A stretch of 63,011 nucleotides of DNA from an uncultured Desulfobacterales bacterium (GCA_964561845.1 CAZLRK010000002.1:1-63011), one strand, 5' to 3'. Numbered from the stretch's first letter, positions 41,935 through 62,813 are shown. The notes: generated by a model from the sequence alone, not told the origin. Translations and numbers: made by a program.

Positions 41935-42395
41935 AAAGATAAGACATTGCTTTTTCAGTGCGAATAAAGCGAAAATGATGAATTGTGTATAGGCTTCAGC
42001 TTCAGCACAACATATTGAAGCACCCATTTGCACAAACAATAACCTTCTGTATAACCAAAACGGGCTTTATTGTCAATATCGATTATTTGCGTTGGAATTG
42101 AGATTTTATGCAAATTCGAGTACTTCTTGGCGGATTAACCATCCCGATAAACTACATCGGGACAAGCATCTATACACTGAGTATTTCGAGGGTTAAAATT
42201 TGAGCCTGTTGACAAATCCCGCTCATCGGGGACACAGAAATTGGGCAAAAGGGGATATTTTTCAAAGGTCTCAAATAGTTATTAAACTATAAGGAGAAGT
42301 ACGCCCGGAAATTAGCTGTTTTTCTACCTTATTGATTTAATTCGTTTAATGGAATTGTGAACTTTATGCTTGACAGAGGTAACATGGGATGTCCC
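41935..42395 (+). repeat. R-family mosaic repeat, copy R2 (modules A-B-C3-D 3-prime half)
   Basis: Module A aligns with 61205-61310 and module B with 61311-61390. The 3-prime end ctataaggagaagtacgcccgg..cttattgatttaa..tgcttgacagaggtaacatgggatgtccc matches the R consensus. Confidence 0.9.
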
Positions 42396-42507
42396 CAATA
42401 GCTTTACCCATATATCAAAGATCATCTACACTAGGCTTCTTAACCAATTGATAGAGAACGCCTTAGCAGAGTCGTTCTCTATCCTTGAAGGTTATGCCAG
42501 TTACTAT

Positions 42508-42798
42508 TTATCTGGCGTCTTTTAAAAAACCGCTGGCATATTTGTGAAGTACACTTCCAATTAATGTTTGATAAGGAATGCCTTCCCTTGCAGCTCTTCT
42601 TTGTATAGCGGAAAGGTCATTTTCCGAAATTCTTATGTTGATCTTACGGTTCTTTTTCATAGTATTACGGGCTATTGTTTGGTAATCAGGCTGCGATTTT
42701 GAAGGTTTTAGCTTTCCGTTTTCATATGCCTCTAAGATTTCTTTTTCATATTCATCAAGGATTATTTTTTTTTGCTTTTTAACCATTTTCTCCTCCAA
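42508..42798 (-). CDS. BrnA-like / CopG-type antitoxin
   Basis: 96-aa ORF. EKEILEAYENGKLKP..INIRISENDLSAIQRRAAREGIPYQTLIGSVLHKYASG is typical of BrnA-family antitoxins. Overlaps the toxin gene. Confidence 0.75.
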   Translation of the reverse strand: MEEKMVKKQKKIILDEYEKEILEAYENGKLKPSKSQPDYQTIARNTMKKNRKINIRISENDLSAIQRRAAREGIPYQTLIGSVLHKYASGFLKDAR

Positions 42799-43108
42799 GG
42801 TATTTCTTGGTTGCCTTCCTACTAGGAATAATCGTTTTAAAAAAATACTCGTTTTTATCTATAACACATGGAACTAAATATGCATATCCATCCACATCAA
42901 TTATTAGTATTTTTTGATTCGGATACCGCTTCTTATTGGGATGATCTGTTTCAATAATTGTAGCTCCTGATGCAACTCTTTGTACTATTTCTTCGAATGT
43001 AATTCCTCTTTCCTCGGCTAGAACTTCATTTTTTTCGGTATTCCATTTAAAGATTTTCATAACTATACGATATGGCATTATAGAGACAATGTCAATAATT
43101 TGTTTCAA
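42779..43108 (-). CDS. BrnT-like toxin (DUF497-type)
   Basis: FKWNTEKNEVLAEERGITFEEI.. is a BrnT-like N-terminus. The likely true start is Met at 43060 (MKIFKWN). Confidence 0.65.
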   Translation of the reverse strand: MKQIIDIVSIMPYRIVMKIFKWNTEKNEVLAEERGITFEEIVQRVASGATIIETDHPNKKRYPNQKILIIDVDGYAYLVPCVIDKNEYFFKTIIPSRKATKKYLGGENG

Positions 43109-43140
43109 TTTTTATGGCATAATGATTTAATCAACTACAC

Positions 43141-43242
43141 GGCGATATAGGGAGATTCGCCGAAAGCTTTTCAAAAAAACTATAAGGGAAAGTGCGCCCG
43201 GAATTTAACCGTTTTTATATCTTATTGATTTAACTCTGTTTT
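43141..43242 (+). repeat. R-family repeat, copy R3 (module D fragment, 3-prime truncated)
   Basis: gcgatatagggagattcgccgaaagcttttcaaaaaaactataagggaaagtgcgcccggaatttaaccgtttttatatcttattgatttaactctgtttt. The complete version is at 50737-50882. Confidence 0.9.
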
Positions 43243-43324
43243 GGGCCAGCTCGTATCCAATGCTGTTTCCAATAATGCCGGCACCAATAACAATGGCATC
43301 ATATTTTTTTTCAGTCACTTTCAT
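43243..43324 (-). pseudogene. 27-codon N-terminal stump of a FAD-dependent oxidoreductase (DadA/SoxB-type dinucleotide fold)
   Basis: Minus strand has AAGGAAA Shine-Dalgarno, then ATG MKVTEKKYDAIVIGAGIIGNSIGYELA, ending exactly at the duplication border 43242/43243. Confidence 0.7.
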
Positions 43325-43412
43325 TTTCCTTACTTAATTCCTACTTTTTTGCAATTTTTGGGTATATTCAATTAAAAAAATGCTCATGCCTGATGTGGAA
43401 AATTTCAACTTG

Positions 43413-44276
43413 TTATTTTTTCATTATTTCGAGAAACTTAGCTTCTTCGCCATCAACCATATGATAACAATACTTGTCCTCGTCGGGAAAGGAGACCTCT
43501 TTAACTTCCTTGACATACTCTTTCATGGCATCTGTTATGATTTCGGCCACATTGCAGTATTTTTTCACAAATTTAGGTGTAAAGGCCTGGAACTGGCCGA
43601 TAAGGTCGCTGACAATCAGAAGCTGACCATCACAGTGCGGACCTGCACCAATACTTAACACCGGGATATCAAGTGTTTCCCAGATATATTTGGTAACCTC
43701 TGGAGGCACGCCTTCCACCAGCAGCATTTTTGCCCCGGCCGCCTGGACAGCCAACGCATCCTCAACAACCAGCTTGGCAGCTTCAGCAGTACGTCCCTGG
43801 GCTTTGTGGCCGCCTAACTGACCAGAGGATTGTGGTGTCAATCCAATGTGACCCACCACAACCACACCTGCCTCATCAATGGCCTTGATCCGGCTCGCAA
43901 TACGCACTCCGCCTTCCAGTTTGATAGCATCAACGTCAGCCTCTTTCAGGAATCGAATAGCGTTTGCTACAGCATCCTCGTCAGAAGTCTGGTAACTGCC
44001 TAAAGGCATATCTCCAACCACAAAAGCACTCCTGGCACCCCGCCGAACTGCCTCAGAATGCACAATGCACTGATCCATGGTCACTGGTATGGTGCTGTTA
44101 TAGCCGTAAACACACATTCCAAGAGAATCTCCTACAAGAAGCATCTCCAAGCCTGCTGCCTCGGCAAACTGGGCAGTAGGGTAATCATAGGAGGTTAACC
44201 AAGATATCTTTTCTCCATTCTCTTTCATCTTGTAAAGATCAAACAAACTTTTCTTTTTAGACATTTTTTTCTCCAT
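43413..44276 (-). CDS. panB: 3-methyl-2-oxobutanoate hydroxymethyltransferase (ketopantoate hydroxymethyltransferase)
   Basis: 287-aa ORF. LTSYDYPTAQFAEAAG..LLVGDSLGM..VVGDMPLGSYQ..AIKLEGG are hallmark PanB motifs. Confidence 0.88.
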   Translation of the reverse strand: MEKKMSKKKSLFDLYKMKENGEKISWLTSYDYPTAQFAEAAGLEMLLVGDSLGMCVYGYNSTIPVTMDQCIVHSEAVRRGARSAFVVGDMPLGSYQTSDEDAVANAIRFLKEADVDAIKLEGGVRIASRIKAIDEAGVVVVGHIGLTPQSSGQLGGHKAQGRTAEAAKLVVEDALAVQAAGAKMLLVEGVPPEVTKYIWETLDIPVLSIGAGPHCDGQLLIVSDLIGQFQAFTPKFVKKYCNVAEIITDAMKEYVKEVKEVSFPDEDKYCYHMVDGEEAKFLEIMKK

Positions 44277-44318
44277 TCATTTTAATAATATTTATATTTT
44301 TCTGTTTAAATCCTACAA

Positions 44319-45632
44319 TTAATTATGCAGTAATTGTGCATATTCAGTCTTAAATTTTTCCCACCCTTCAAAATCACTGACTGCATTGGCGATCCTTTCT
44401 ACACCTTCTTTGAGTGTATTCAGATCAGATGCCAGGGAGAGTCTTATATAATGTTCATCTTCACATTCCAGGGAACCGAAACTGGCCCTGTCAACTGTGG
44501 CTACACCATGATGATAAATGGCAAATAATTGAAACATGCTTGACGGTTGCACAGGATTAAGCCCTTTTTCTTTGAGTTCTTTGTAATGATCTATAATACC
44601 AAGTTCCTGACAAGCACCACCGATATTCGGGAAGGCATAAAAGGCACCGCCAGGCTTCATACACTGAATACCCGGAATATCATTGAGTGCTTTAATTACA
44701 ACATTTCTCCGATTTTCAAATTCAGCCGTCCGCTGACCTACAATCGCATCGTTCTCTTTATCATCAAGGGCCTGCTGTGCAGCTGCCTGTATAAAAGGGG
44801 GTACGCAGGAATACGTATTAATGTTCCACTGTTTGAAAAGTCTTGCCTCTTCAACACTGGGAAGAACAGCATATCCTATGCGCCATCCTGTCATTGCGAA
44901 AGTCTTGGAATGACTATTGAGAAGAATCGTATGTGAGGTCACCAAGGGATTGGAAAGAATACTGATATGATCACGTCCTTCAAAAACAATCTTTTCGTAA
45001 ACTTCATCTGATAAAATTCTGAACTGCGGATGGGCATTTTCTTTTGCAAGTTTGGCAATCAAGTCAAGGTCTTCCCTGGTAAACATGCCACCGGTTGGGT
45101 TGGAAGGAGAATTAAGAATAATCAATTTAGTTTTTTTTGATATTAACGGTTTCAAATCCTCCACGTCAAACCTGAAGCCTTTTTCTTCTTTTAATGTCAT
45201 GGGGCGGGGAATTGCTTTGACATATTTTATCCAGGATTCATAAATAGGGAACCCCGGGTTGGGATAAATTACCTCATCTTCTTTATCCACATAGGTAAGC
45301 AGGCTGTAACTGATGGGTGGTTTGCCGCCGCAGGTGACAACCACCTGATCAGGATGGATACTGACATTGTGGGTCTTCTCAATTGTTCCTGCAATTGACT
45401 TGCGCAAAGACAAAAGGCCTTGGGGGTCACAATAATTGGCATTCCCGGTTTCAATATTTTTAATGGCTGCGGCATTAATATTTGATGCGCTGTTAAAATC
45501 AGGTTCTCCAAGATTCAATCGGATGACAGATTTCCCCTGATCTTCAGCGCGACGGATATCATCACCAACCTTAAAGGCTGTCTCACTTCCTAAGTTTTCC
45601 ATTCGCCTGGCAATAAGTTTCGTGTTAAACAT
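44319..45632 (-). CDS. Pyridoxal-phosphate-dependent aminotransferase, class I/II
   Basis: 437-aa ORF. NLGEPDF, NPSNPTG and SHSKTFAMTGWRIGY (PLP Lys) motifs. Confidence 0.85.
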   Translation of the reverse strand: MFNTKLIARRMENLGSETAFKVGDDIRRAEDQGKSVIRLNLGEPDFNSASNINAAAIKNIETGNANYCDPQGLLSLRKSIAGTIEKTHNVSIHPDQVVVTCGGKPPISYSLLTYVDKEDEVIYPNPGFPIYESWIKYVKAIPRPMTLKEEKGFRFDVEDLKPLISKKTKLIILNSPSNPTGGMFTREDLDLIAKLAKENAHPQFRILSDEVYEKIVFEGRDHISILSNPLVTSHTILLNSHSKTFAMTGWRIGYAVLPSVEEARLFKQWNINTYSCVPPFIQAAAQQALDDKENDAIVGQRTAEFENRRNVVIKALNDIPGIQCMKPGGAFYAFPNIGGACQELGIIDHYKELKEKGLNPVQPSSMFQLFAIYHHGVATVDRASFGSLECEDEHYIRLSLASDLNTLKEGVERIANAVSDFEGWEKFKTEYAQLLHN

Positions 45633-45717
45633 CGTTGTGTTCCTAATCCTTTAAATTTTTTATTACGCGGTGTTAAAGTTATATCATATCCTGATCTTAC
45701 CTAATATTTGATATAGT

Positions 45718-45732
45718 TCAAGATGTATGCCA
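45718..45732 (-). promoter_or_regulatory. Weak sigma-54 promoter candidate upstream of the aminotransferase-panB operon
   Basis: Minus strand reads TGGCATacatcTTGAa. The -24 element is good, but the -12 element is TTGA instead of TTGC. About 86 nt upstream of the 45632 start; the EBP gene is adjacent. Confidence 0.35.
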
Positions 45733-45882
45733 TAGGGGAATATTGCATAACTGCTTGATTTTTTTAAAACTATTTGTTTTGCGAAAAAATGAGATTTATG
45801 TTTCTTCTGGGGTGATTTCTCCCCAAGCTTAACCGACCAATTGATGGTATCGTACTTAGGGCCTGATCAATCAACGGATAAG

Positions 45883-45906
45883 AAAAAATGGGGAGAGAAT
45901 ACCCCA
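45883..45906 (-). terminator. Intrinsic terminator after the second EBP gene
   Basis: Minus strand reads TGGGGtattctctCCCCA followed by TTTTTT, 24 nt after the stop at 45930. Confidence 0.6.
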
Positions 45907-45929
45907 TTATGGGGAGAGGTTGCTATGCT

Positions 45930-47699
45930 TTAAGGAGAGAGCAGTTGATGCCGCTTTATTTTTGTAAACAAAGTTTTTCTATCTATTCCCAATAATTGTG
46001 CAACTTTGCCACGCTTCCATTGATTCTGGTTAAGCGATTCAAAGATAATACGCTTCTCATAGACATCCAAAAGGTTTTTCAATTTATTGGACTCATTGCC
46101 ATTAAATTCAGGGATATTAACAGGAGATCCCTTATCGTGGAGCAGATTATCGTCGATAAGATCAATCTCATTTAAAGTCACATATCTTAAAATAGTGTTC
46201 TGCAATTCTCTTACATTGCCGGGCCAATGGTAATTCAATAGAGTTTTCATGACAACTTGAGGGATATCTTTTTTTTGATCTTCCTGCTTATATTTATTCA
46301 AGAAGTAATCAATTAATAAGGGAATGTCCTCTTTCCGATCTTTCAATTGAGGCAGATAAATTGAAAGCACATGAATCCGATAAAAAAAATCCTGACGGAT
46401 CTTTCCTGTTTTCACATCTTCTTTTAAGTTTCTATTGGTAGCTGCAACAATCCTAACGTTGGATTTTTTAATTTTGGTGCTTCCTACCGGACTATATCCC
46501 TTTCCATCCAGGACCCTTAAGAGTTTAACCTGAAGCGACAGGCTGATTTCACCCAACTCATCCAGAAAAAGCGTCCCTTTGTTAGCTGTATCAAGATATC
46601 CTGCTTTTTCCCTATCCGCACCGGTAAATGCGCCCTTGACATGGCCAAAAAATTCATTTTCCAGAAGATACTCCGAAAAGGCCCCGCAATTGACCGGAAC
46701 AAAGGGTTTGTTACTACGCTCGCTGAGATTATGAATCGCTTTGGCCACTAGTTCTTTGCCGGTACCGGATTCGCCATAAATAATCACATTGGTATCAGTT
46801 GATGCGGCCTTTAATATCAACTCATAGACTTTTTGCATGCCCTCACTTTTTCCAATCATATCACCAAAACGGTACCGGTCCTTGATGCTGGATCTAAGCC
46901 TTTCATTCTCCCTTCTAAGCTCAAGCTCTGTCACTTTTTGGGCTGTAAAATCATTTACATAGCCTTCGAGGGCAACCAGTTTTCCAGACTCATCAAAGAC
47001 GCCACTTCCCTGTTCCCATACCCATTTATAATTATCATTGGTTGTGATGAGTCGATAAAATAATTCAAAAGTTGTTTTTGATTTCACAGCTGCATCAATA
47101 GTTTCTCTGACCTTTTTTTGATCTTCCGGATGTACTCGTTCACTGAACCGGTTGATTGAGTTTCCCTGCAGGTATCCACTGTCATACCCAATTAGATCCA
47201 TACTTCCTTTACTGACAAATTCAAGGGTCCAGTGTCTGTCATTGAGGATTCTATAGGCCATTCCCGGCAAATTATTCATCAGGGTGGAAAGCCTTCTTTC
47301 ACTTTCTCTCAGAGCGATTTCCGACATATACCTGGACGTGGTTTCTTCAAGAATTATTATGCTTCCAACTGTTGTATCATTCTGGCGGATCACTCTGGCG
47401 ATTAAATTATAATACTGTTGCTTGTACTGCTGGGAATCGGTTGCAGATAATATACAGTTTTCAAGATATATAACGTTTGCAGATTCTGTTGATCGCTGAT
47501 AAATTTCAGAGAGACCGGATTCGGCAATTTTTGGAAATCGATTAAATAGGTTTGATCCAAGAATAACTTCCGCTGTTACATTGGTTATCTCCTCCATTGT
47601 CTTATTCCAGAGTTGCACCTTGAAATCAAGATTTAACATGAGAACACCGATCGGCATTTTTTTGATAATTTCTTTGGAATTTATTTTTTTTAATACCAT
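45930..47699 (-). CDS. Sigma-54-dependent transcriptional activator with two PAS domains
   Basis: 589-aa ORF. AAA+ core (GESGTGKE, GAFTGA) and C-terminal HTH (VAQLLGIDRKTLFTKIKR). Confidence 0.88.
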   Translation of the reverse strand: MVLKKINSKEIIKKMPIGVLMLNLDFKVQLWNKTMEEITNVTAEVILGSNLFNRFPKIAESGLSEIYQRSTESANVIYLENCILSATDSQQYKQQYYNLIARVIRQNDTTVGSIIILEETTSRYMSEIALRESERRLSTLMNNLPGMAYRILNDRHWTLEFVSKGSMDLIGYDSGYLQGNSINRFSERVHPEDQKKVRETIDAAVKSKTTFELFYRLITTNDNYKWVWEQGSGVFDESGKLVALEGYVNDFTAQKVTELELRRENERLRSSIKDRYRFGDMIGKSEGMQKVYELILKAASTDTNVIIYGESGTGKELVAKAIHNLSERSNKPFVPVNCGAFSEYLLENEFFGHVKGAFTGADREKAGYLDTANKGTLFLDELGEISLSLQVKLLRVLDGKGYSPVGSTKIKKSNVRIVAATNRNLKEDVKTGKIRQDFFYRIHVLSIYLPQLKDRKEDIPLLIDYFLNKYKQEDQKKDIPQVVMKTLLNYHWPGNVRELQNTILRYVTLNEIDLIDDNLLHDKGSPVNIPEFNGNESNKLKNLLDVYEKRIIFESLNQNQWKRGKVAQLLGIDRKTLFTKIKRHQLLSP

Positions 47700-48366
47700 T
47701 TAATTTCTTTTTAAGACCTATTTGAATCAATCGTATCATCTATTACATAAAATATCTAAAACACTGGTTCAATTGTGTCAACCAAAGAAAGAAACACAAA
47801 TATAAAAGTTGCTTATTATGAAATGTATAAAACATAAAAAAAATATTTAATTTGAAACTGATTTCCTCATGAGCAATGGTATCATCGGTGACTGTCAAGA
47901 TTTTCAAAATAGTCAGGACTGGCAAAAGTATTGGTGACCGACCGGCATCAGTCCATGGGTGGGAACTACGTGTAAAACTCGATTTTATAAAAATCTTCCA
48001 CCACTACATATGGGTGCGCCACGAGGGCGTAGGATACCAGCGGATGAAAGTTCCGCCCGAGAAAATTATCGGTTCATCCCGGTAGCTACCCAGACAGTGG
48101 GATAGGGAAACCTTCCTGCTGAAGCTCTGGGGACAAATGTAAGCCTTTAAAGTAACTACCTGAAATAACAGATAGCATTCACTTAGGGTAAAATCCTTAG
48201 TTTTTTGTGTTGAAAGTGTTGAATGTGAGATCTTTCATAGTTTTCATGACAAAAAGCATCTTCCTTATTTAAATTGAAAAAGGAATGATCTAATTTTATT
48301 TTCATCACTTACCATCTCGTTTTCAGCATTTTCAAACCCGAGATTAAAATAAAATTAAGATGTTTG

Positions 48367-49516: not shown

Positions 49517-49530
49517 TTTTTAACCAACTT

Positions 49531-49991
49531 AAAGATAAGACATTGCTTTTTCAGTGCGAATAAAGCGAAAATGATGAATTGTGTATAGGCTTCAGCTTCA
49601 GCACAACATATTGAAGCACCCATTTGCACAAACAATAACCTTCTGTATAACCAAAACGGGCTTTATTGTCAATATCGATTATTTGCGTTGGAATTGAGAT
49701 TTTATGCAAATTCGAGTACTTCTTGGCGGATTAACCATCCCGATAAACTACATCGGGACAAGCATCTATACACTGAGTATTTCGAGGGTTAAAATTTGAG
49801 CCTGTTGACAAATCCCGCTCATCGGGGACACAGAAATTGGGCAAAAGGGGATATTTTTCAAAGGTCTCAAATAGTTATTAAACTATAAGGAGAAGTACGC
49901 CCGGAAATTAGCTGTTTTTCTACCTTATTGATTTAATTCGTTTAATGGAATTGTGAACTTTATGCTTGACAGAGGTAACATGGGATGTCCC
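49531..49991 (+). repeat. R-family mosaic repeat, copy R4 (identical to R2)
   Basis: Part of the duplication. Confidence 0.9.
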
Positions 49992-50103
49992 CAATAGCTT
50001 TACCCATATATCAAAGATCATCTACACTAGGCTTCTTAACCAATTGATAGAGAACGCCTTAGCAGAGTCGTTCTCTATCCTTGAAGGTTATGCCAGTTAC
50101 TAT

Positions 50104-50394
50104 TTATCTGGCGTCTTTTAAAAAACCGCTGGCATATTTGTGAAGTACACTTCCAATTAATGTTTGATAAGGAATGCCTTCCCTTGCAGCTCTTCTTTGT
50201 ATAGCGGAAAGGTCATTTTCCGAAATTCTTATGTTGATCTTACGGTTCTTTTTCATAGTATTACGGGCTATTGTTTGGTAATCAGGCTGCGATTTTGAAG
50301 GTTTTAGCTTTCCGTTTTCATATGCCTCTAAGATTTCTTTTTCATATTCATCAAGGATTATTTTTTTTTGCTTTTTAACCATTTTCTCCTCCAA
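50104..50394 (-). CDS. BrnA-like / CopG-type antitoxin (second identical copy)
   Basis: Protein identical to the 42508-42798 product. Confidence 0.75.
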   Translation of the reverse strand: MEEKMVKKQKKIILDEYEKEILEAYENGKLKPSKSQPDYQTIARNTMKKNRKINIRISENDLSAIQRRAAREGIPYQTLIGSVLHKYASGFLKDAR

Positions 50395-50704
50395 GGTATT
50401 TCTTGGTTGCCTTCCTACTAGGAATAATCGTTTTAAAAAAATACTCGTTTTTATCTATAACACATGGAACTAAATATGCATATCCATCCACATCAATTAT
50501 TAGTATTTTTTGATTCGGATACCGCTTCTTATTGGGATGATCTGTTTCAATAATTGTAGCTCCTGATGCAACTCTTTGTACTATTTCTTCGAATGTAATT
50601 CCTCTTTCCTCGGCTAGAACTTCATTTTTTTCGGTATTCCATTTAAAGATTTTCATAACTATACGATATGGCATTATAGAGACAATGTCAATAATTTGTT
50701 TCAA
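50375..50704 (-). CDS. BrnT-like toxin (second identical copy)
   Basis: Protein identical to the 42779-43108 product. Likely true start at 50656. Confidence 0.65.
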   Translation of the reverse strand: MKQIIDIVSIMPYRIVMKIFKWNTEKNEVLAEERGITFEEIVQRVASGATIIETDHPNKKRYPNQKILIIDVDGYAYLVPCVIDKNEYFFKTIIPSRKATKKYLGGENG

Positions 50705-50736
50705 TTTTTATGGCATAATGATTTAATCAACTACAC

Positions 50737-50882
50737 GGCGATATAGGGAGATTCGCCGAAAGCTTTTCAAAAAAACTATAAGGGAAAGTGCGCCCGGAAT
50801 TTAACCGTTTTTATATCTTATTGATTTAACTCTGTTTTTGAAATTATGAACTTTATGCTTGACAGGTAATATAGGATGTCCC
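50737..50882 (+). repeat. R-family repeat, copy R5 (module D from gcgatataggg to the gatgtccc terminus)
   Basis: Continues past the duplication border: ..ctctgtttttgaaattatgaactttatgcttgacaggtaatataggatgtccc. Confidence 0.9.
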
Positions 50883-51857: not shown

Positions 51858-51883
51858 TTTATGTACGTCTCTTGATTAAGGAT

Positions 51884-52045
51884 CTCGGGGACACAGAAAT
51901 TGGGCAAAAGGGGGCGTTTTCAAAGGTCTCAAGGGATGTTTAGTGGCCGCACTTAGTTGTGGTATACTGGATAATCGTAACGATCAGATGCGTGGTTCGC
52001 GATATAGGGAGATTCGCCGAAAATTTTTCAAAAAAACTATGAAGA
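51884..52045 (+). repeat. R-family repeat, copy R6 (C3 fragment + C2 fragment + 5-prime half of D)
   Basis: ctcggggacacagaaattgggcaaaaggggg..caaaggtctcaa (as in 42226-42275), then tagtggccgcacttagttgtggtatactggataatcgtaacgatcagatgcgtggttcgcgatatagggagattcgccgaaaa. Confidence 0.85.
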
Positions 52046-56137: not shown

Positions 56138-56321
56138 GCCCCACGCCCAATTATTCCTTTAAGAATTATTCTTATAGGCATAATTCCATAAGACATAACA
56201 AAAGTCAACCTATTTTTATTTAGCACATAAGTTCCCAAAAAGAACTCCTCAGAAACCTCCCTTAGCTCGATAAACAACATCGAGGCCATTGCGGATTTCT
56301 GGAGGGATCCGCCGCGGCGGA

Positions 56322-56583
56322 GGCCGGTAATTTATTCCGCCTGGCGAGGCTGAACTTTTCAATCTGGATATGGGATGATTAGTGGTCGCACTTAGTTGTG
56401 GCATGCTGGATAATCGTAACGATCAGATGCGTGGTTCGTGATATAGGGAGATTCGCCGAAAATTTTTCAAAAAACTATAAGGAGAAGTGCGTCCAAAAAT
56501 TAGCCGTTCTTCTATCTTATTGATTTAACACGTTTATTGAAAAGATGAATTTTATGCTTGACAGAGGTAATATGGGATGTCCC
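56322..56583 (+). repeat. R-family repeat, copy R7 (modules C2-D, full length)
   Basis: Nearly identical to 62573-62813. About 85-90 percent identical by eye to 59444-59704. Confidence 0.92.
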
Positions 56584-56982: not shown

Positions 56983-57780
56983 TCATAAATCAATATCTCC
57001 CTTGTTAATTATGATTTCTTTTTGTGATTTCGAGAGTTTTTTAATTTTTTGTTCCATCTTTAACGCCGACGATTTGCTCCCTATTTTTTTTTGAAACACC
57101 AACTCGAGAGGGCCCCTGCCACGAAGATATTTCGCGCCCTGTTTTACCATTTTCTGATGTTTTTCAAAACGCCTGGTAACATCATTTGATATACCTGTAT
57201 ACAGTGTACCATCGTGGCATCTGATCATGTATAAATACCACTCGGCTTTCTCCGCTTCCAACTGCGCCACCCATAGTTTTAAAGCTTTCCTAACTTTTTG
57301 ATCTATAAAGGAAAAAATATGTTGAACAGTATCGCGGGAACTAGAACGTGTATGGCCAGCCACCTTTGTAACCTCGAACTTTAACTGGTCATGAAATTCG
57401 TAATATTTGCCGTATAAAGATGCGTTTCTTAACAGACGATTACCTCCCCTACTATGGAAACCGCTGCTTTCCAACCGGGCCCTTCTTGACAAAAGCCCTT
57501 CAACACACTGGGAATCAGAATAAATATGGAGTTTCTCCGACTCGGAAATGGTTGATCCAATACAATATTCTTCCAAAGCCCACAAAACTGTTTGGACCTC
57601 AAGTTTTGTAGAAGAAGTGTCTTCAAATCTTTTTAACACCAGAATTTCGTTCAGTTCCGATATTTTAATCAGGTTTGATGGGGTTTTAATAAACGATTCA
57701 GGAACGATAAGATAACCGCCCACACCAACTTTGAGTCCAGGATTCAAACTTGCATCGGTAAAGAGAGAATAATTGTTCAT
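56983..57780 (-). CDS. Fusion protein: RNase H (type 1)-like domain + GIY-YIG nuclease domain
   Basis: N-terminus has FTDAS.. / ..KLEVQTVLWALE / IYSDSQ / VAGH / FID (DEDD-H pattern). C-terminus has WYLYMIRCHDGTLYTGISNDVTRRFEKHQ..GAKYLRGRGPLELVF (GIY-YIG). Confidence 0.7.
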   Translation of the reverse strand: MNNYSLFTDASLNPGLKVGVGGYLIVPESFIKTPSNLIKISELNEILVLKRFEDTSSTKLEVQTVLWALEEYCIGSTISESEKLHIYSDSQCVEGLLSRRARLESSGFHSRGGNRLLRNASLYGKYYEFHDQLKFEVTKVAGHTRSSSRDTVQHIFSFIDQKVRKALKLWVAQLEAEKAEWYLYMIRCHDGTLYTGISNDVTRRFEKHQKMVKQGAKYLRGRGPLELVFQKKIGSKSSALKMEQKIKKLSKSQKEIIINKGDIDL

Positions 57781-57799
57781 TAATAAGAGGATTTACGGT

Positions 57800-57994: not shown

Positions 57995-58060
57995 AATTTA
58001 CCTCATGTAAGATATGGTATAGTCCAGATACATAGGTGACATTATAGTTTTGATACATTA

Positions 58061-58411
58061 TTATTTTTTCGTTTTATAGCGATTGGGTTCATCGAAATAC
58101 GTAATATCCGCATATCCAGCGTAAATTTTTCCGGAATGTTTAACTCCTGAAGGGATGTAATATCTATCACCTTTGGTATAGGTTTCCTTTTTTCCACCAA
58201 TCGTCAGGTCAATCTTGCCCTCCAAAACGATACCGATCTGGGCAGCATGAGAATGTTCCGGTAATTCAACATCCTTTTCGAATTCCATAAAAATTATTTG
58301 ATGAGTATCGGATTGAGAAAGATATGCTTTTATTCCTTCTAACGGTATATCAGCTTCAGGAAGATTTTTGATAGGATCTGGAAATACTTCTGACATTGAA
58401 ACTCCTTTCAT
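58061..58411 (-). CDS. Cupin domain protein
   Basis: 116-aa ORF. LPEHSHAAQIGIVLEGK..GDRYYIPSGVKHSG is a cupin metal-site pattern. Confidence 0.8.
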   Translation of the reverse strand: MKGVSMSEVFPDPIKNLPEADIPLEGIKAYLSQSDTHQIIFMEFEKDVELPEHSHAAQIGIVLEGKIDLTIGGKKETYTKGDRYYIPSGVKHSGKIYAGYADITYFDEPNRYKTKK

Positions 58412-58582
58412 TCATTGAGTATAACTTTTGGATAATCCGCTTGTAACCTTTCCACTGCATTTCGAAAAATAGATGAAGTTCTGTTCTTGCACGAAATGTA
58501 AGAAAAGTGCAGAGGCACAAGTCGATGTTCATTCTATCGTTATCTTTGTTCTTTTTTTTCTTGAAGAATACTAACCTGTTTA

Positions 58583-59212
58583 TCAATTAGGGAATACTAC
58601 TACACGATATTGTTCATGATCAACAATTCCATATTCAATCTGATCTGGATCCCATGTAACATTATTCGTCTCGTACAGTGATCGTGAAAAGCAAAATATG
58701 CCTGGATTCTTAGAACAAAAACGTTCCATCTTTCTATATATCTTCCCTGCGTCACTCCAACCACGATTGATTTCCTTTTTCTGTGGGAAAAAATTAACGT
58801 CCATCCCACCTCCTTGACAATGACTTAGAAAGTGCCCTCTTTCTTTACCATGATAATGATGGGTAAAATCTGGTATAAAGCCAGCCTGACGGTTTTCATC
58901 TCGGGCATCTGTCGTTGATTGAGATAAACCAAAGAAACAAACGACGCGTTCGTAATTGTAATCAAAAAGACATTGATAGTGACCATCTGAGAATTCTAGA
59001 ATTTCATTAGATGTCTGGATCATTTCATTGTACGCATCTATCCACACATTCGAAAGTTCATTCAGAACCCATGCCTCAATTTCTTCTTTTCTACATTCAG
59101 TTTTTGCACGAGAGTAAAGCATATCATAATCAATATTACTTAGTTGGATTATACCTGAAGCAACTGCTTCATCGATTTCTCTCCATAGATTCGTCGTATC
59201 CGTCATCAGCAC
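58583..59212 (-). CDS. Hypothetical protein with a NucA / DNA-RNA non-specific endonuclease-like beta-beta-alpha-Me motif
   Basis: ERGHFLSHCQGGGMDVNFFPQKKEINRGWSDAGKIYRKME parallels the DRGH..N..PQ..N.G.W..E active-site pattern. No signal peptide is visible. Confidence 0.5.
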   Translation of the reverse strand: MLMTDTTNLWREIDEAVASGIIQLSNIDYDMLYSRAKTECRKEEIEAWVLNELSNVWIDAYNEMIQTSNEILEFSDGHYQCLFDYNYERVVCFFGLSQSTTDARDENRQAGFIPDFTHHYHGKERGHFLSHCQGGGMDVNFFPQKKEINRGWSDAGKIYRKMERFCSKNPGIFCFSRSLYETNNVTWDPDQIEYGIVDHEQYRVVVFPN

Positions 59213-59443
59213 GATTTTTTTAAAGTTGAACTGATATTCCTTGTCAGAAGATAGTGAGTGATCGGAATTTTTCCGGAACGAGCGGGAAAATACGGAAAAA
59301 ATTCTGCCCGAATGGAAAAATACGGCATTTTCTTTTTTACAGTTAGTCTTAACATGAAAAACGGCAGGTTACAAATGTTTATGGATAGGAAGCAACTTTC
59401 TTCTTGTATAATTTGCAGACGAATCTCTGAAAGGACAATACCG

Positions 59444-59704
59444 GGCCGGTAATTTATTCCGCCTGGCGAGGCTGAACTTTTCAATCTGGATATGGGATGA
59501 TTAGTGGCAGCTTTAGTTGTGGCATATTGGATAATTGTAACGATCAGATGCGTGGTTTGCGATATGGAGAGATTCGCCGAAAAATAGTCAGTAAACTATA
59601 AGGAGAAGTATGCCCAAAAACTAGCCGTTCTTTTATCTTATTGATTTAGCACGCTTATTAAGATTATGAACTTTATGCTTGACAGAGGTAATATGGGATG
59701 TCCC
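59444..59704 (+). repeat. R-family repeat, copy R8 (modules C2-D)
   Basis: ggccggtaatttattccgcctggcgaggctgaacttttcaatctggatatgggatgattagtgg.. to ..tgcttgacagaggtaatatgggatgtccc. Confidence 0.92.
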
Positions 59705-59751
59705 ATATGATCAAATCATTAATATGTCATAATATTAAAATTCACCTGTAC

Positions 59752-61059
59752 TTAGCTTTTGGGATTCAAATTCTTCAGACGAATCGTGGCCGCATAGCGA
59801 TGGGCGTCCATACCTTCGTATTTTGCTTGCGTCTCAGCGTACTTGGCCAACTTCAGCGAAGCTTGCAGGGTTGTCTCCATGTGAGTGATGACTTTCAAAA
59901 ACATTCCGACCCAAAGACCTCCCGTATAGCGAGCTGCCTCACCTGTGGGCAGGGTATGGTTGGGCCCGGCAATTTTATCGGCAAAAACTTCAGCCGTATT
60001 TTCACCTATAAACGCGGAGCCGTAGTGTTTGAGCATGGTCAAGGCCTGCCTCGGTTTGGTGGTATGAATCTCAAGGTGCTCAGGCGCGTATTCATTGGCA
60101 TATCGTGCTGCATGATTTAAGTTATCTACGACAACAACCACTCCTTTGTTTTCCCATGAGGCCCGGGCCACTTCTTCGGTCGTTCTTTGCTTTAGCTGGC
60201 GCTCAATTTCATCCATAGTTTGCCTGGCCAAGGATTCGGATACGGTTACAAGACAACCCCGGGCATTGGGATCGTGCTCACATTGAGCCAAGAGATCTGC
60301 CGCCAAGTAATCGGCCCTGGCGGATTCGTCGGCAATAATCAGCACTTCGCTGGGACCGGCGAGAAAATCGATTCCGACGGCTCCGAAGACCTGTCGCTTT
60401 GCCTCTGTGACAAATTGATTACCGGGGCCGACAATCAGATCCACGCGGGAAATAGATTCTGTCCCATAAGCCAATGCTCCAATTGCCTGGATTCCTCCAA
60501 GACAGTAAATTTCATCCACTTCCATTTTATGCATTGTATAAAGTATTCCGGGATTAATAGCCCCTTGACTTCCCGGTGGGCTGCAGGCAACGACTCGGCC
60601 GACACCGGCGACTTTTGCCGGAATGACCGACATTACAGCCGCCGTCAAGCAAGGATATCTACCTGCCGGAACGTAGCAACCACAAGAATCAACCGGAATA
60701 ATTCGATGGCCCATCTTCATACCCGAACCTATTTCTTTGTCAAACTCAACCATGCTCTTTTTCTGGGCCTGAGCAAAAGCAGTAACCTGGGAAATGGCAA
60801 AGTCAAGCTCCTCGATTACTTTTACCGGAAGTTCTTTCTTGGCCTTAGCCGCCTGATCAGGCGTGATCCTGAAGGAGGGAGGATCATAATTATCAAATTT
60901 TTTCTCGTAGTAGCGAAGTGCGCTATCTCCTCTTTGTTTTACCTCGGCAAGAATGGAGCGCACCGTCTCTTGAAGTTGGGTAACATCTTCCTCGGCCACG
61001 GGTTTCGCACTTTTTATCTCTCTGTAATACATATGATTAGCATCCTTATTTTTAGGCAA
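59752..61059 (-). CDS. Histidinol dehydrogenase family protein (HisD or a HisD-like paralog)
   Basis: 435-aa ORF. GPGNQFVTEAKRQVFGAVGIDFLAGPSEVLIIAD..DLLAQCEHD..EYAPEHLEI are HisD family motifs. No other his genes lie nearby. Confidence 0.8.
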   Translation of the reverse strand: MPKNKDANHMYYREIKSAKPVAEEDVTQLQETVRSILAEVKQRGDSALRYYEKKFDNYDPPSFRITPDQAAKAKKELPVKVIEELDFAISQVTAFAQAQKKSMVEFDKEIGSGMKMGHRIIPVDSCGCYVPAGRYPCLTAAVMSVIPAKVAGVGRVVACSPPGSQGAINPGILYTMHKMEVDEIYCLGGIQAIGALAYGTESISRVDLIVGPGNQFVTEAKRQVFGAVGIDFLAGPSEVLIIADESARADYLAADLLAQCEHDPNARGCLVTVSESLARQTMDEIERQLKQRTTEEVARASWENKGVVVVVDNLNHAARYANEYAPEHLEIHTTKPRQALTMLKHYGSAFIGENTAEVFADKIAGPNHTLPTGEAARYTGGLWVGMFLKVITHMETTLQASLKLAKYAETQAKYEGMDAHRYAATIRLKNLNPKS

Positions 61060-61165
61060 TCTTGTCTGCCGCAGTACTTTGGCATATTATATATTTTAGG
61101 CATTCTTTTAATTACCCGGAATTTGTTTTAAAAGAAAACATCGCTTTTAACCCTTGGGCTTCGGC

Positions 61166-61297
61166 TTATCCGGACCAGGAAAATTCGTCCACTATTTCTT
61201 TGTCAAAGATGAGGCATTGCTTTTTCAACGCGGATAAAGCAAAAATGGCGAATAGTGAATATGCTTCTGCTACAGCACTACATATTGAAGCATCCAT
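61166..61297 (-). CDS. Candidate 43-codon small ORF in R9 module A (MDASICSAVAEAYSLFAIFALSALKKQCLIFDKEIVDEFSWSG)
   Basis: ATG lies about 20 nt downstream of the module-B promoter-like motif. Homologous frame in R2/R4 is MGASICCAEAEAYTQFIIFALFALKKQCLIF. About half of the codon differences are synonymous. No clear Shine-Dalgarno. Confidence 0.3.
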   Translation of the reverse strand: MDASICSAVAEAYSLFAIFALSALKKQCLIFDKEIVDEFSWSG

Positions 61298-61618
61298 CAA
61301 TACATACAATAACATTCCGAATAACCAAAGCGGGCTTTATTGTCAATATCGATTTTTTGCGGTGAAATTGAGATTTTAGGCAAATTCGAATCCGCCGCCG
61401 GATTTGGCTGTGGCTGGATTTTTTTTAAAGGTAGGTTTCAATTGGATAATCGTAACGGTCAGATGCGTGGTTCGTGATATAGGGAAATTCGCCGATAATT
61501 TTTCCATAAACTATAAGGAGAAGTGCGCTTAAAATTAGTTGTTCTTGTATCTTATTGATTTTACACGCTTATTGAAACTTTGAACTTTATACTTGACAGA
61601 GGAAATATAGGATGTCCC
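61205..61618 (+). repeat. R-family mosaic repeat, copy R9 (modules A-B-C1-D, most complete)
   Basis: Aligns to R2 (A, B), R1 (B, C1, D) and R7 (D). Confidence 0.92.
61318..61346 (-). promoter_or_regulatory. Candidate sigma-70 promoter in R9 module B (TTGACA-17-TATTCG) facing the small ORF and the hisD-family gene
   Basis: Same motif as in R1 (31485-31513) and R2 (42048-42076, TTGACA-17-TATACA). An overlapping plus-strand TTGTCA-17-TGAAAT lies at 61340-61368. Confidence 0.4.
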
Positions 61619-61703
61619 CGAGTTCACACTGTGCCTTAATTCACGATTCAAGCTTTGATACCGATATCCAATCCCGATCTGTTCCTTGAATTCCTGATTA
61701 CAC

Positions 61704-62066
61704 TTATAAAGGAAGAATACGGGCTCGCAATTTTTTTTGGTCAATAGTGACTATCGCACCATCTTTGAGGTGCTTCTCAAACTGGTGAAGCGCTGAAACC
61801 ACAAGCAAGTATAGGTGTTCGGGAGTCACATCTTGGGTACGAACTTGAATTACACTTGGACAATCAGCTTTGGTAGCAGCAAGTATGGTTCCAAAATCCA
61901 GATCATGCGTGAAAACGACATATCCATTGGACCTGGCATATTCCAGAATTTCATAATCCGGAGCGTCTGGTCGGCCGATACTGGACCAGTGGGTTGCTTC
62001 CAAACCCGCTTCCTTTAGTACGGACACCCACTTCGGGGAAAGATTCATGTCTATTAATAGCTTCAT
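61704..62066 (-). CDS. PIN-like toxin candidate (DUF5615 / Mut7-C-like)
   Basis: 120-aa ORF. MKLLIDMNLSP.W...L......H......PD.EIL..A......V.T.D.DF pattern. 4-nt overlap with the DUF433 gene. Confidence 0.65.
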   Translation of the reverse strand: MKLLIDMNLSPKWVSVLKEAGLEATHWSSIGRPDAPDYEILEYARSNGYVVFTHDLDFGTILAATKADCPSVIQVRTQDVTPEHLYLLVVSALHQFEKHLKDGAIVTIDQKKLRARILPL

Positions 62067-62299
62067 GCCGATGTCGAAACGAGTGGAACGTCTATTTCTT
62101 CAACACGCCATGCGGCGTAAGAGAGTGCCTCGTCAATGTCTTTAGCTTCCAGATAGGAATACAATTTCAAAATTTCCTCCTTGGTGTGTCCCGAGGCAAC
62201 AAGGCCGACTATCATCCCTACAGTTACACGCATGCCACGAATGCAGGGTTTCCCTCCCATGATATCGGGATCGAAGGTAATTCTGTTTAACGGTATCAT
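62063..62299 (-). CDS. DUF433-family antitoxin-like protein
   Basis: 78-aa ORF. ITFDPDIMGGKPCIRGMRVTVGMIVGLVASGHTKEEIL..Y..L...DI.EAL.YA is typical of DUF433. Confidence 0.75.
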   Translation of the reverse strand: MIPLNRITFDPDIMGGKPCIRGMRVTVGMIVGLVASGHTKEEILKLYSYLEAKDIDEALSYAAWRVEEIDVPLVSTSA

Positions 62300-62572
62300 T
62301 TTAGACCTCCACTGATAATTTTTTTTGCCCTGAAGTAATTATACTGTGTCACGCCTCTTACTGCAAGTTTTTCTTTTTTGGAATACCTTTTGGAATAATT
62401 TCCGTGACGTGGTTATCCGAGTTGGTATCGACTTGTCAAATGCCAACTTTCATGAAAAATGGACGGAACAATTTGCAGTATCGATTAAGGTATATAACCC
62501 CCTAATAAACCATTTTACATTTTCGGCGAGAAGGTCCGACAAACGATGTCGGTGCCATATGGCACAAATATA

Positions 62573-62813
62573 GGCGGGACTGAACTTTTCAATCTGGATA
62601 TGGGATGATTAGTGGTCGCACTTAGTTGTGGCATGCTGGATAATCGTAACGATCAGATGCGTGGTTCGTGATATAGGGAGATTCGCCGAAAATTTTTCAA
62701 AAAACTATAAGGAGAAGTGCGTCCAAAAATTAGCCGTTCTTCTATCTTATTGATTTAACACGTTTATTGAAAAGATAAATTTTATGCTTGACAGAGATAT
62801 TATAGGATGTCCC
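62573..62813 (+). repeat. R-family repeat, copy R10 (modules C2-D)
   Basis: Nearly identical to R7 except close to the 3-prime terminus (..gacagagatattataggatgtccc). Confidence 0.92.

What the first reader, a model, noticed from the sequence alone, without database searches (positions are those of the whole stretch)
41935..62813. Co-oriented modular repeats delimit a 21-kb array of unrelated gene cassettes: integron-like organisation with non-attC repeats
Nine R-family copies (R2-R10) lie between 41.9 and 62.8 kb, all in the same orientation, and all intervening genes are on the minus strand. Successive intervals carry a DUF433/PIN-like TA pair; a small ORF plus an orphan hisD-family gene; a NucA-like nuclease, cupin, YwbE and RNase H-GIY-YIG fusion; an ATPase, a decayed IS and a GC-rich SpeE-like gene; a CMAS-like methyltransferase; and a BrnTA-like pair present twice. 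One larger segment carries sigma-54 EBP, aminotransferase, panB and aroK-like genes. The conserved module D (about 190 bp) always ends in ..TGCTTGACAG(A)GGTAATATRGGATGTCCC. In R7, R8 and R10 a 10-nt direct repeat ATATGGGATG occurs near both ends. Upstream modules (A, B, C1, C2, C3) are shuffled between copies. R7 and R10 are almost identical, which indicates recent exchange. Strict co-orientation, small single-function cassettes, TA modules, compositional heterogeneity and truncated genes at repeat borders resemble a sedentary integron or pdif-module array. However, the repeats are 2-4 times longer than attC and lack the R/L box pattern, and no recombinase is in the window. This could be an undescribed cassette-shuffling system or a structured RNA-bearing element.
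Basis: partly seen in the sequence, partly recalled or inferred. Interest (0 to 1): 0.8.

Follow-up and report, generated by a model that had tools for sequence, protein, structure and literature searches.

The report
Orphaned right ends of IS110 transposon
The co-oriented repeats are leftover right-hand ends, including the guide-RNA region, of a widespread RNA-guided IS110-family insertion sequence that has lost its transposase gene here; they are not the recombination sites of a new integron-like gene-cassette system.

Summary
The repeats are real: ten copies, all on the + strand, nine of them between 42.3 and 62.8 kb. They are not an unknown kind of repeat. The terminal motif CTTGACA-N15-GGATGT|CCC occurs in more than 120 metagenome loci. 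In 41 of these, a 420-428 aa IS110-family DEDD transposase lies on the same strand and stops about 300 nt upstream. The R family is therefore the 3' non-coding region plus right end of that insertion sequence. This region encodes a structured RNA: helices covary, and one 9-nt guide segment matches each copy's own left flank (0 of 20,000 permutations reach the observed match). Joining right end to left end would create a TTGACA-N17-TATATA promoter. The window holds no transposase, no left end, no integrase and no attC-like site. Only two copies keep both RNA loops; the others are truncated from the 5' side. The two rearrangements seen have breakpoints inside repeats or genes, not at repeat termini. 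The array is best read as a variable chromosomal region littered with dead right-end remnants and reshuffled by homologous recombination. Two things remain unexplained: only right-end pieces survive, and all ten point the same way.

The parts
62511..62810 (+). R10: complete 3' non-coding region (NCR) plus right end (RE) of the IS110-family element, without transposase. Last bases are GT (core); the flank starts with CCC.
   Evidence: NCR profile positions 4-323 of 323, E=2.5e-48. Aligns from the transposase stop codon of L142/L004/L119 onward.
56264..56580 (+). R7: NCR plus RE lacking the first ~25 nt. Keeps both guide loops. TTGACA at 56558-56563. ATATGGGATG at 56368-56377 and 56570-56579.
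   Evidence: Profile positions 26-323, E=1.1e-48. 92.8% identical to the NCR of the full element L142. Sequence read.
59420..59701 (+). R8: NCR plus RE, 5'-truncated inside the first (target-loop) hairpin.
   Evidence: Profile positions 54-323, E=2.7e-44; alignment A4.
61444..61615 (+). R9: 5'-truncated copy starting in the 3' side of the donor loop, preceded by module A.
   Evidence: Profile positions 143-323.
31609..31780 (+). R1: same left junction as R9 (module A + profile position ~141), but with a right end of a different subfamily (GAATGT type). Lies outside the array, next to ordinary metabolic genes.
   Evidence: The terminus resembles L080/L082/L052.
50746..50879 (+). R5: 5'-truncated copy (last ~140 nt) with an intact terminus.
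   Evidence: Profile positions 182-323.
43150..43241 (+). R3: duplicate of the R5 start, cut at the boundary of the 1308-bp duplication (43242).
   Evidence: Profile positions 182-279.
42284..42392 (+). R2b: last ~110 nt of the element, preceded by a MITE fragment (module B).
   Evidence: Profile positions 215-323.
49880..49988 (+). R4b: exact duplicate of R2b.
51931..52043 (+). R6: internal NCR fragment, truncated on both sides and preceded by module B.
   Evidence: Profile positions 107-213.
41935..43242 (.). First copy of a 1308-bp, 100% identical segmental duplication (second copy 49531-50838) that brackets 6.3 kb (panB, aminotransferase, EBP, aroK). Its boundaries lie inside a gene start and inside the NCR, not at a repeat terminus.
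   Evidence: Contigs L136 and L140 break exactly at 49531.
49531..50838 (.). Second copy of the 1308-bp duplication.
61205..61440 (.). Module A: a copy of the upstream region and first codons of the EBP gene 40124-41947 (other copies at 41935-42121 and 31468-31607). Not derived from the IS.
   Evidence: No match in IS loci.
42172..42281 (.). Module B: right end of a separate MITE with terminal inverted repeats (second fragment at 51885-51932).
   Evidence: The complete MITE, with inverted ends TGAGACCTTTG.AAAA / TTTTCAAAGGTCTCA, lies inside the NCR of L082.

Best explanation
The R repeats are transposase-less remnants of one family of IS110-type insertion sequences. These elements use a DEDD transposase guided by a bridge/seek RNA.

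The full element is about 1.8 kb. Its layout is: left flank ...NNNNNAAC-GT | left end TATATAT... (~145 nt) - transposase (420-428 aa) - ~310-nt non-coding region (NCR) encoding the guide RNA - right end ...CTTGACA-N15-GGAT-GT | CCC... The GT dinucleotide is the crossover core. CCC is the part of the target read by the invariant guide segment GGGAC. In a circular form, the right-end TTGACA plus the left-end TATATA would make a junction promoter.

The window holds ten right-side pieces: NCR plus right end, mostly cut from the 5' side. It has no left end and no transposase. Only R10 and R7 still contain both RNA loops, so most copies are dead.

The 'modules' are three things: nested truncations of the NCR, a nested MITE, and a copied gene-upstream segment. 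The 'cassettes' are blocks of an ordinary variable chromosomal region (toxin-antitoxin pairs, IS and intron debris, foreign-looking genes). The dispersed, co-oriented remnants provide homology for duplication and deletion, as shown by the 1308-bp duplication, the near-identity of R7 and R10, and contig L010.

Shown here: identity of the repeats, architecture of the full element, RNA structure, and guide-flank matching. Inferred: circle formation and the junction promoter, the origin of the truncations, and the role of homologous recombination.
For: - The terminal motif is found in more than 120 metagenome loci and in 5 genome contigs, mostly from Desulfobacterales-type MAGs.
- ORF clustering finds one shared protein family on the motif strand, ending ~290 nt upstream. 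It carries PF01548 DEDD_Tnp_IS110 and PF02371. Forty-one loci carry it.
- The protein search gives more than 5,300 relatives. The few that carry a source name are called 'transposase' or 'IS110 family transposase', and most sit on 1.7-2 kb contigs.
- A profile of 27 transposase-linked NCRs hits the window ten times, E from 1e-48 to 8e-9, all on the + strand. R7 is 92.8% identical to the NCR of the complete element L142.
- Covariation in the NCR: 97.1% of cells paired; 36 cells with changes on both sides against 7.2 in shuffles (0/500); slid controls give at most 11.
- The 9-nt guide segment matches each copy's own left flank: 74 of 91 positions against 49.9 +/- 4.1, with 0 of 20,000 permutations reaching the observed value. 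L142 gives CACGAACGT in both guide and flank.
- The left junction ACGT|TATATAT is seen in 18 of 20 full-length copies examined, plus L142.
- The window has no transposase (tblastn), no left end (nhmmer), no integrase and no attC-like site.
- Breakpoints of the duplication and of the L010 junction are internal to repeats or genes.
- Most window copies are at least as similar to external copies as to other window copies (only R7 and R10 pair with each other), as expected for separate insertions.
- Published background: seekRNA and NCR position (PMC11187229); junction promoters and a transposase-less RNA module, MITEPpu9 (PMC12288879).
Against: - Random decay of 1.8-kb elements should also leave transposase and left-end fragments, but none is found against ten right-side pieces.
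- All copies share one orientation, yet the family shows no orientation bias relative to GC skew (33:29) or to neighbouring gene strand (45:42). With about six independent lineages, chance gives roughly 0.03.
- Density is high: ten remnants in 31 kb, against none besides the complete element in 17.6 kb around a full copy in L143.
- The rest of the host genome and the DNA beyond 63011 cannot be seen, because the window is the whole contig.
- All related contigs are at least 99.8% identical, so the absence of cassette polymorphism is a weak test.
Confidence: 0.8

Rival explanations
1. Origin variant. The solo copies were made as partial copies by the transposition machinery itself, not by later deletion. 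The right end is transferred to a new GT|CCC site, and copying or joining on the left side is incomplete. This gives a fixed 3' end and a variable 5' end, as in LINE 5' truncation.
For: - Only right-side remnants exist in the window.
- Right-end-anchored copies of 25-300 nt are common in other metagenomes. They are often preceded within 10-25 nt by a target-like xxACGTCCCC site.
- GTCCC recurs within 87 nt to the right of the end in 20 of 110 loci, against about 7 expected, often together with a copy of the flank and a 2-45-nt piece of the right end.
- A preprint reports top-strand-only, sequential transfer with separate left and right junction formation, and 'partial transposition', for an IS110 element (bioRxiv 10.1101/2025.10.25.684509).
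Against: - The metagenome search was anchored on the right-end motif, so 3'-truncated copies could not be found there.
- The flank copies are similar but rarely identical.
- In the window only R10 has a flank-like repeat on its left (CCCTAATA).
- The left junctions show no common sequence.
- There is no experimental evidence for this family.
Confidence: 0.3
2. The R termini act as recombination sites for an IS110-type recombinase encoded elsewhere, so gene blocks between R copies are excised and captured as cassettes. This would be an RNA-guided analogue of an integron.
For: - The arrangement is co-oriented and regularly interspersed. Each R terminus keeps half of a donor site and half of a target site.
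- Contig L010 joins block X to block A through an R7/R10 hybrid, as a circle or tandem copy would.
- The gene blocks differ in base composition.
Against: - The L010 crossover lies inside the 197-nt identical core, not at GT, and may be an assembly chimera.
- The boundaries of the 1308-bp duplication lie inside a gene and inside the NCR.
- Most copies lack the RNA loops, and hybrid sites match only half of each guide loop.
- R1 lies among housekeeping genes.
- No block polymorphism appears in 36 related contigs.
Confidence: 0.07
3. The solo copies are kept because they do something for the host or for the element. Possible roles: orphan guide-RNA genes used in trans, decoys for the transposase, or regulatory or terminator elements for the neighbouring genes.
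For: - R10 and R7 keep both loops. In R7 both core positions changed together (LTG CAACAT, RTG GGGAT).
- There is a precedent for an abundant small RNA module associated with an IS110 element (Ssr9, PMC12288879).
Against: - Eight of ten copies lack one or both loops.
- No promoter-like or terminator-like site recurs in the copies.
- Single-sequence folding is not more stable than shuffled sequence (z about +0.65).
- All copies are antisense to their neighbouring genes.
Confidence: 0.05
4. An ordinary MITE with terminal inverted repeats and target-site duplications.
For: Short, non-coding, multi-copy and intergenic. One real TIR-MITE (module B) is nested in two copies.
Against: - The R copies have no inverted terminal repeat.
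- No locus carries the end motif on both strands.
- The left ends are variable.
- The homology is to an IS110-type element, which has no terminal inverted repeats.
Confidence: 0.02

Closest known systems
IS110/IS1111-family insertion sequences with bridge RNA / seekRNA (IS621, ISEc11, ISEc21)
   Same: - DEDD transposase with PF01548 and PF02371.
[quoted passage not shown]
- A core dinucleotide at both junctions, no terminal inverted repeats, and a sequence-specific target.
- A promoter that would be assembled across the circle junction.
   Different: The transposase is 420-428 aa, which is the size of the IS110 subgroup, yet the NCR lies downstream as in IS1111-type elements (PMC11187229 notes such exceptions). 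The guide layout and the target (7 nt + GT + CCC) were inferred here and have not been tested. In the window only the NCR/right-end part is present.
MITEPpu9 / ssr9 module of ISPpu9 (Pseudomonas putida)
   Same: A transposase-less RNA-bearing module derived from the downstream part of an IS110-family element, present as solo copies in the chromosome.
   Different: MITEPpu9 has its own left and right boxes (A'/B') and forms minicircles (PMC12288879). The window copies have no detectable left end and start at many different positions.
Integron cassette arrays / CALINs, and IS1111-attC elements that insert into attC sites
   Same: Co-oriented repeats between small, unrelated, co-oriented gene blocks, including toxin-antitoxin pairs. 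IS110/IS1111 relatives are known to target attC sites.
   Different: There are no attC core sites and no IntI. The repeats are IS ends, not hairpin recombination sites. The flanks of the repeats share only CCC.
5'-truncated copies of non-LTR retrotransposons (analogy only)
   Same: Fixed 3' end and variable 5' end, sometimes with a short duplication of the target.
   Different: This is a DNA element with a DEDD recombinase. No reverse transcription is involved, and the mechanism here is unknown.

Membership tests
IS110/IS1111-family insertion sequence (as a remnant of one) | DEDD (RuvC-like) transposase with PF01548 plus C-terminal PF02371, next to the repeat | tested here: met
   Met in 41 related loci on the same strand, ~300 nt upstream of the terminus. 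Absent from the window itself (tblastn), so the window copies are non-autonomous remnants.
IS110/IS1111-family insertion sequence (as a remnant of one) | Long non-coding region encoding a structured RNA | tested here: met
   Four helices, 97.1% of cells paired, 36 cells with changes on both sides against 7.2 in shuffles (0/500); slid controls give at most 11.
IS110/IS1111-family insertion sequence (as a remnant of one) | RNA segments that match the target flank and covary with it | tested here: met
   Left guide against own left flank: 74 of 91 matches against 49.9 +/- 4.1, with 0 of 20,000 permutations reaching this. The right guide GGGAC equals the reverse complement of GTCCC and is invariant. 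Donor-side matches (ATAAGGGATG to the right end; TAAC to GTTA) were seen but not tested statistically.
IS110/IS1111-family insertion sequence (as a remnant of one) | Same core dinucleotide at both junctions, no terminal inverted repeats, specific target | tested here: met
   Left junction ..ACGT|TATATAT and right junction ..GGATGT|CCC in full copies. Intact ACGTCCCC sites are seen in flanks.
IS110/IS1111-family insertion sequence (as a remnant of one) | Circular intermediate with a junction promoter | not testable with these tools
   At sequence level only: joining right end to left end gives TTGACA-17 nt-TATATA.
IS1111 subgroup specifically | Transposase of 330-350 aa with clear subterminal inverted repeats | tested here: not met
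   The transposase is 420-428 aa. Only a weak ACATCC/GGATGT inverted match was seen by eye. The downstream NCR is IS1111-like (PMC11187229).
Integron / CALIN | attC sites: RYYYAAC ... GTTRRRY inverted core sites 50-150 nt apart at cassette borders | tested here: not met
   No such pair on either strand in 41.9-63 kb. This is a crude pattern test, not the IntegronFinder covariance model. Single-strand folds are no better than shuffles.
Integron / CALIN | IntI tyrosine recombinase and attI next to the array | tested here: inconclusive
   None among the ORFs scanned in the window. The contig ends 200 nt after R10.
MITE | Terminal inverted repeats and target-site duplication | tested here: not met
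   No inverted partner of the end motif in any locus. The left ends are variable.
pdif / Xer modules | 28-bp XerC-spacer-XerD sites in alternating orientation | tested here: not met
   The terminus is not palindromic (only GACA..TGTC), and all copies are in direct orientation.
MITEPpu9-like mobile RNA module | Own copies of both IS end boxes flanking the RNA gene | tested here: not met
   The left-end profile finds nothing in the window (best E=0.63, and not near any R copy).

The most novel reading that the evidence does not exclude
Bridge-RNA IS110 elements of this family regularly make right-end-anchored partial copies by one-ended strand transfer to GT|CCC sites. Clusters of such co-oriented orphan ends, some still encoding the guide RNA, then drive block duplication, deletion and capture in variable chromosomal regions. 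This would be a natural by-product of RNA-guided recombination that has not been described.
Probability: 0.2. Interest if true: 0.6.

Novelty: new member of a known kind. Interest (0 to 1): 0.3.

Why it matters
The result removes a candidate 'new integron-like system' and replaces it with a concrete annotation. The repeats belong to a large, environmentally widespread IS110 subfamily in which a 428-aa transposase precedes a downstream guide RNA. Its ends, core (GT), target rule (7 nt + GT + CCC) and guide segments can be read directly from natural copies, which may be of use for work on bridge-RNA recombinases.

The excess of right-end-only copies, here and in other metagenomes, is a cheap natural data set. 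It bears on the open question of whether IS110 elements move by double-strand exchange or by single-strand, stepwise transfer.

Tried and rejected
- Structured RNA from single-sequence folding: R7 folds no better than shuffles on either strand. Structure became visible only with the alignment of many copies.
- Rfam: there is no family for the repeats at gathering score or at E<=1.
- Sigma-70 promoter within the repeat: TTGACA has no -10 box at the right distance inside the element. It fits only as half of a junction promoter.
- Promoter for a downstream gene: neighbouring genes to the right are 45 on the minus strand and 42 on the plus strand.
- IS200/IS605 omega-RNA, IS91/ISCR rolling-circle end, group II intron fragment, Tn7/CAST end and tRNA-linked integrative element were all considered. 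They were dropped once the linked protein proved to be an IS110 DEDD transposase.
- Exact 7-mer search for flank matches in the NCR gave no signal. The guide was found only after alignment.
- Left-end remnants next to R7, R8 and R10: similarities seen by eye were not supported by the left-end profile.
- Replication-strand bias as the cause of co-orientation: IS110 bias is reported in the literature (PMC3971601), but this family shows none relative to GC skew.
- Cassette polymorphism: two look-ups listed 16 and 20 contigs, all with the same arrangement apart from L010.


Full report
**1. The observation**

Self-comparison of the window shows a repeat family with all copies in direct orientation. 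The terminal 12-mer ATRGGATGTCCC occurs eight times, always on the + strand, against 0.55 expected. A profile built later, only from foreign transposase-linked copies, finds exactly ten hits, all on the + strand: one at 31.6 kb and nine between 42.3 and 62.8 kb. The copies share a sharply defined right boundary and start at different points on the left.

Two of the nine array copies, and the second BrnTA pair, exist because 41935-43242 is repeated with 100% identity at 49531-50838. However, minus-strand orientation holds for nearly the whole contig, including glutamate synthase, glnA and the Liv and Opp transporter operons. The window is the complete contig (ENA ERZ23499040, scaffold_406), so nothing to its right can be read.

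**2. What the repeat is**

The end motif was searched in public collections. It occurs in five contigs from species-representative genomes, mostly Desulfobacterales-type MAGs.

Some loci share only the last ~35 nt with the window copies, and many matches lie near contig ends. Neighbouring genes to the right are on either strand (45 minus, 42 plus), so the motif is not a promoter for a conserved downstream gene.

All ORFs around the motif were then clustered. This gave one dominant family: a 401-428 aa protein on the motif strand that ends about 290 nt upstream of the motif. It carries PF01548 (DEDD_Tnp_IS110) and PF02371, and 41 loci contain it. The protein has more than 5,300 relatives at E<=1e-30. 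The few with a source name are called 'transposase' or 'IS110 family transposase', and most lie on contigs of 1.7-2 kb, as expected for a multi-copy element of that length.

The R family is therefore the 3' non-coding region (NCR, ~310 nt) plus right end of an IS110-family insertion sequence. R7 is 92.8% identical to the NCR of the complete element L142, and R10 aligns from the transposase stop codon to the end.

**3. Architecture of the full element**

In 18 of 20 full-length copies examined, plus L142, the left junction reads ...ACGT|TATATAT. About 145 nt of left end then precede the transposase ATG. The right junction reads ...CTTGACA-N15-GGATGT|CCC.

The only bases common to both junctions are GT, which is thus the crossover core. 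Intact ACGTCCCC sites are seen in several flanks. Joining right end to left end, as in the circular intermediates known for this family (PMC12288879; PMC11187229), would give TTGACA, a 17-nt spacer and TATATA, which is a near-consensus promoter. This explains why the repeat 'always ends' in TTGACAG.GGTAATATRGGATGT. The CCC belongs to the target, not to the element.

**4. The RNA**

Single-sequence folding of R7 gives no signal (z about +0.65), and Rfam has no matching family. An alignment of 27 transposase-linked NCRs plus R7, R8 and R10 shows four helices with 97.1% of cells paired. Thirty-six cells have compensatory changes, against 7.2 in column shuffles (0 of 500 reach the observed value) and at most 11 when partners are slid.

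Around the first hairpin, the 5' side carries a 9-nt segment ending in GT, and the 3' side carries GGGAC, the reverse complement of GTCCC. The 9-nt segment equals the left flank of the same copy:
- AAACAACGT in L048
- CACGAACGT in L091 and L142
- TATGGACGT in L095
- AAGAGCGT in L119
- GTGGCTGT in L130

Overall there are 74 matches of 91, against 49.9 +/- 4.1 when flanks are permuted; 0 of 20,000 permutations reach the observed value. This is the behaviour of the target-binding loop of a bridge RNA / seekRNA (PMC11187229; Durrant et al. 2024, cited from my own knowledge).

Around the second, strongly covarying hairpin lie CTGGATAAGGGATGAT, which resembles the right end ATATAGGATGT, and ..TAAC, the reverse complement of GTTA (core plus first bases of the left end). 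It is exact in R7 and R8. I did not test the donor side statistically.

**5. State of the window copies**

The window has no transposase remnant (tblastn) and no left end (nhmmer, best E 0.63 and not near any R copy). It has no integrase and no intact transposase; only decayed DDE fragments are present.

On the 323-position NCR profile, the copies cover the following ranges:

| Copy | Profile positions |
|---|---|
| R10 | 4-323 |
| R7 | 26-323 |
| R8 | 54-323 |
| R9 | 143-323 |
| R1 | 141-323 |
| R5 | 182-323 |
| R2b / R4b | 215-323 |
| R6 | 107-213 |
| R3 | 182-279 |

Only R10 and R7 keep both loops. The 'shuffled modules' resolve into three things:
- nested truncations of the NCR;
- module B, the end of an unrelated MITE with inverted termini, which sits complete inside the NCR of L082;
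- module A, a copy of the upstream region and first codons of the EBP gene at 40124-41947.

R1 is a chimera of an R9-like left part and a right end of another subfamily.

**6. Is it a cassette system?**

There is not a single RYYYAAC...GTTRRRY pair 45-150 nt apart on either strand in 41.9-63 kb. Beyond CCC, the flanks of the copies share nothing.

Two rearrangements are visible.
- The 1308-bp duplication brackets 6.3 kb. Its boundaries lie 12 nt inside the EBP gene and 44 nt before an R terminus.
- Contig L010 joins block X (207-aa ORF, cupin, DUF2196, RNase H-GIY-YIG) through an R7/R10 hybrid to block A (DUF433-PIN). The hybrid is R7-type next to the GT terminus and R10-type on the far side, so the crossover lies within the 197-nt identical core. 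This is homologous recombination or an assembly chimera, not exchange at the terminus.

The look-ups for two genes of the region listed 16 and 20 contigs. All those shown have the same arrangement at 99.8% identity or more. This population therefore shows no cassette polymorphism, but the test is weak.

**7. What remains odd**

- Only right-side pieces survive: ten, against no left-end or transposase fragment.
- All ten share one orientation. The ten copies reduce to about six lineages (R1/R9, R7/R10, R2b/R4b and R3/R5 are pairs), so chance alone gives about 0.03.
- IS110 orientation bias is reported in the literature (PMC3971601). This family shows none relative to GC skew (33:29) or to neighbouring gene strand.
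- Most window copies are at least as close to foreign copies as to another window copy. For example, R8 is closest to L142 (89%), and R9 to L004/L005 (88%). This fits separate insertions rather than local copying, except for R7/R10.
- In other metagenomes, right-end-anchored copies of 25-300 nt are common and are often preceded within 10-25 nt by a target-like ..ACGTCCCC site.
- GTCCC recurs within 87 nt to the right of the end in 20 of 110 loci, against about 7 expected. It often comes with a copy of the flank and a short piece of the right end, as in L003, L050, L106 and L128.
- A preprint reports that an IS110 element transfers only the top strand, in two separate steps, with 'partial transposition' possible (bioRxiv 10.1101/2025.10.25.684509).

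One-ended transfer of the right end to a new GT|CCC site is therefore a plausible source of such copies. I rate it at about 0.3. The metagenome sample was anchored on the right-end motif, which biases it towards this result.

A 17.6-kb stretch around a full copy on a 131-kb contig has no solo copies, so dense arrays are not a general property of the family.

**8. Verdict**

The element is a member of a known kind: an IS110-family, RNA-guided insertion sequence, present here only as transposase-less right-end remnants in a variable chromosomal region.

The closest described case of a transposase-less RNA module of such an element is MITEPpu9/ssr9 (PMC12288879). Unlike that module, the window copies have no left end.

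The finding is of modest interest. Its main value is a clean annotation of a large environmental IS110 subfamily, with readable guide rules, and a lead on right-end-only copies.

Noticed in passing
window 41935-43242 and 49531-50838: A 1308-bp, 100% identical direct duplication brackets 6.3 kb (panB, aminotransferase, sigma-54 EBP, group II intron fragment, aroK, IS630-like DDE fragment). This is the structure left by a Campbell-type insertion or a partial tandem duplication. Several contigs from other samples break exactly at 49531.
   Followed up: partly
window 48038-48170 (+): Group II intron D1-D4 fragment (Rfam RF02003, 58.4 bits). It is antisense to the neighbouring genes and has no intron-encoded protein.
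   Followed up: no
window 42172-42281 and 51885-51932; L082 oriented 1190-1345: A separate MITE with inverted ends TGAGACCTTTG.AAAA / TTTTCAAAGGTCTCA. It is complete inside the NCR of an IS copy in L082, and only its right end is present in two window copies. It seems to insert into the NCR of this IS family at nearly the same place.
   Followed up: partly
window 31468-31607, 41935-42121, 61205-61440: Module A: the upstream region and first codons of the EBP gene 40124-41947 are copied upstream of hisD and of the pyridine-nucleotide-disulfide oxidoreductase/rhodanese gene. Each copy lies to the left of an R copy, directly adjoining it at R1 and R9. It contains a terminator-like hairpin and T-run on the + strand.
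   Followed up: partly
window 56273-56281 and ~56300-56310 (R7): In R7 both guide segments have the core changed in step: left guide CAACAT instead of ..ACGT, and right guide GGGAT instead of GGGAC. This would retarget the RNA from a GT core to an AT core, or it may be coincidence.
   Followed up: no
right flanks of L003, L035, L050, L077, L106, L128 and others: Tandem mini-duplications of the form GT-CCCC-N(5-25)-[2-45 nt of right end]-GT-CCCC-N, with the flank repeated. GTCCC recurs within 87 nt in 20 of 110 loci, against about 7 expected.
   Followed up: partly
L005 (oriented 231-275): One solo right end abuts the 3' half of a tRNA gene (..GGAGGTTCAAATCCTCTCGCTCCGACCA).
   Followed up: no
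L054, L108, L145 right flanks: Several IS copies sit immediately upstream of the same conserved sequence (GT|CCCGA.AGCGCCGG..AAAACCGG), followed by a 110-aa ORF and a reverse-transcriptase (RVT_1) ORF. This subfamily may target a retroelement.
   Followed up: no
window 933-1013, 8221-8283, 13268-13312: Tandem heptamer repeats (CCGATCA-like) in intergenic regions.
   Followed up: no
window 1876-1958 and 14672-14754: An 83-nt inverted repeat pair, 94% complementary and 12.7 kb apart, unrelated to the R family.
   Followed up: no
window 56983-57780 (-): A single ORF fuses an RNase H-like domain with a GIY-YIG nuclease domain. It sits next to cupin and DUF2196 genes in a block flanked by R7 and R8.
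   Followed up: no
window 62488-62500 and 62811-62820: R10 is flanked by similar short sequences (CCCCCTAATAAAC on the left, CCCTAATAGCAC on the right). It is the only window copy with a flank-like repeat on its left.
   Followed up: partly
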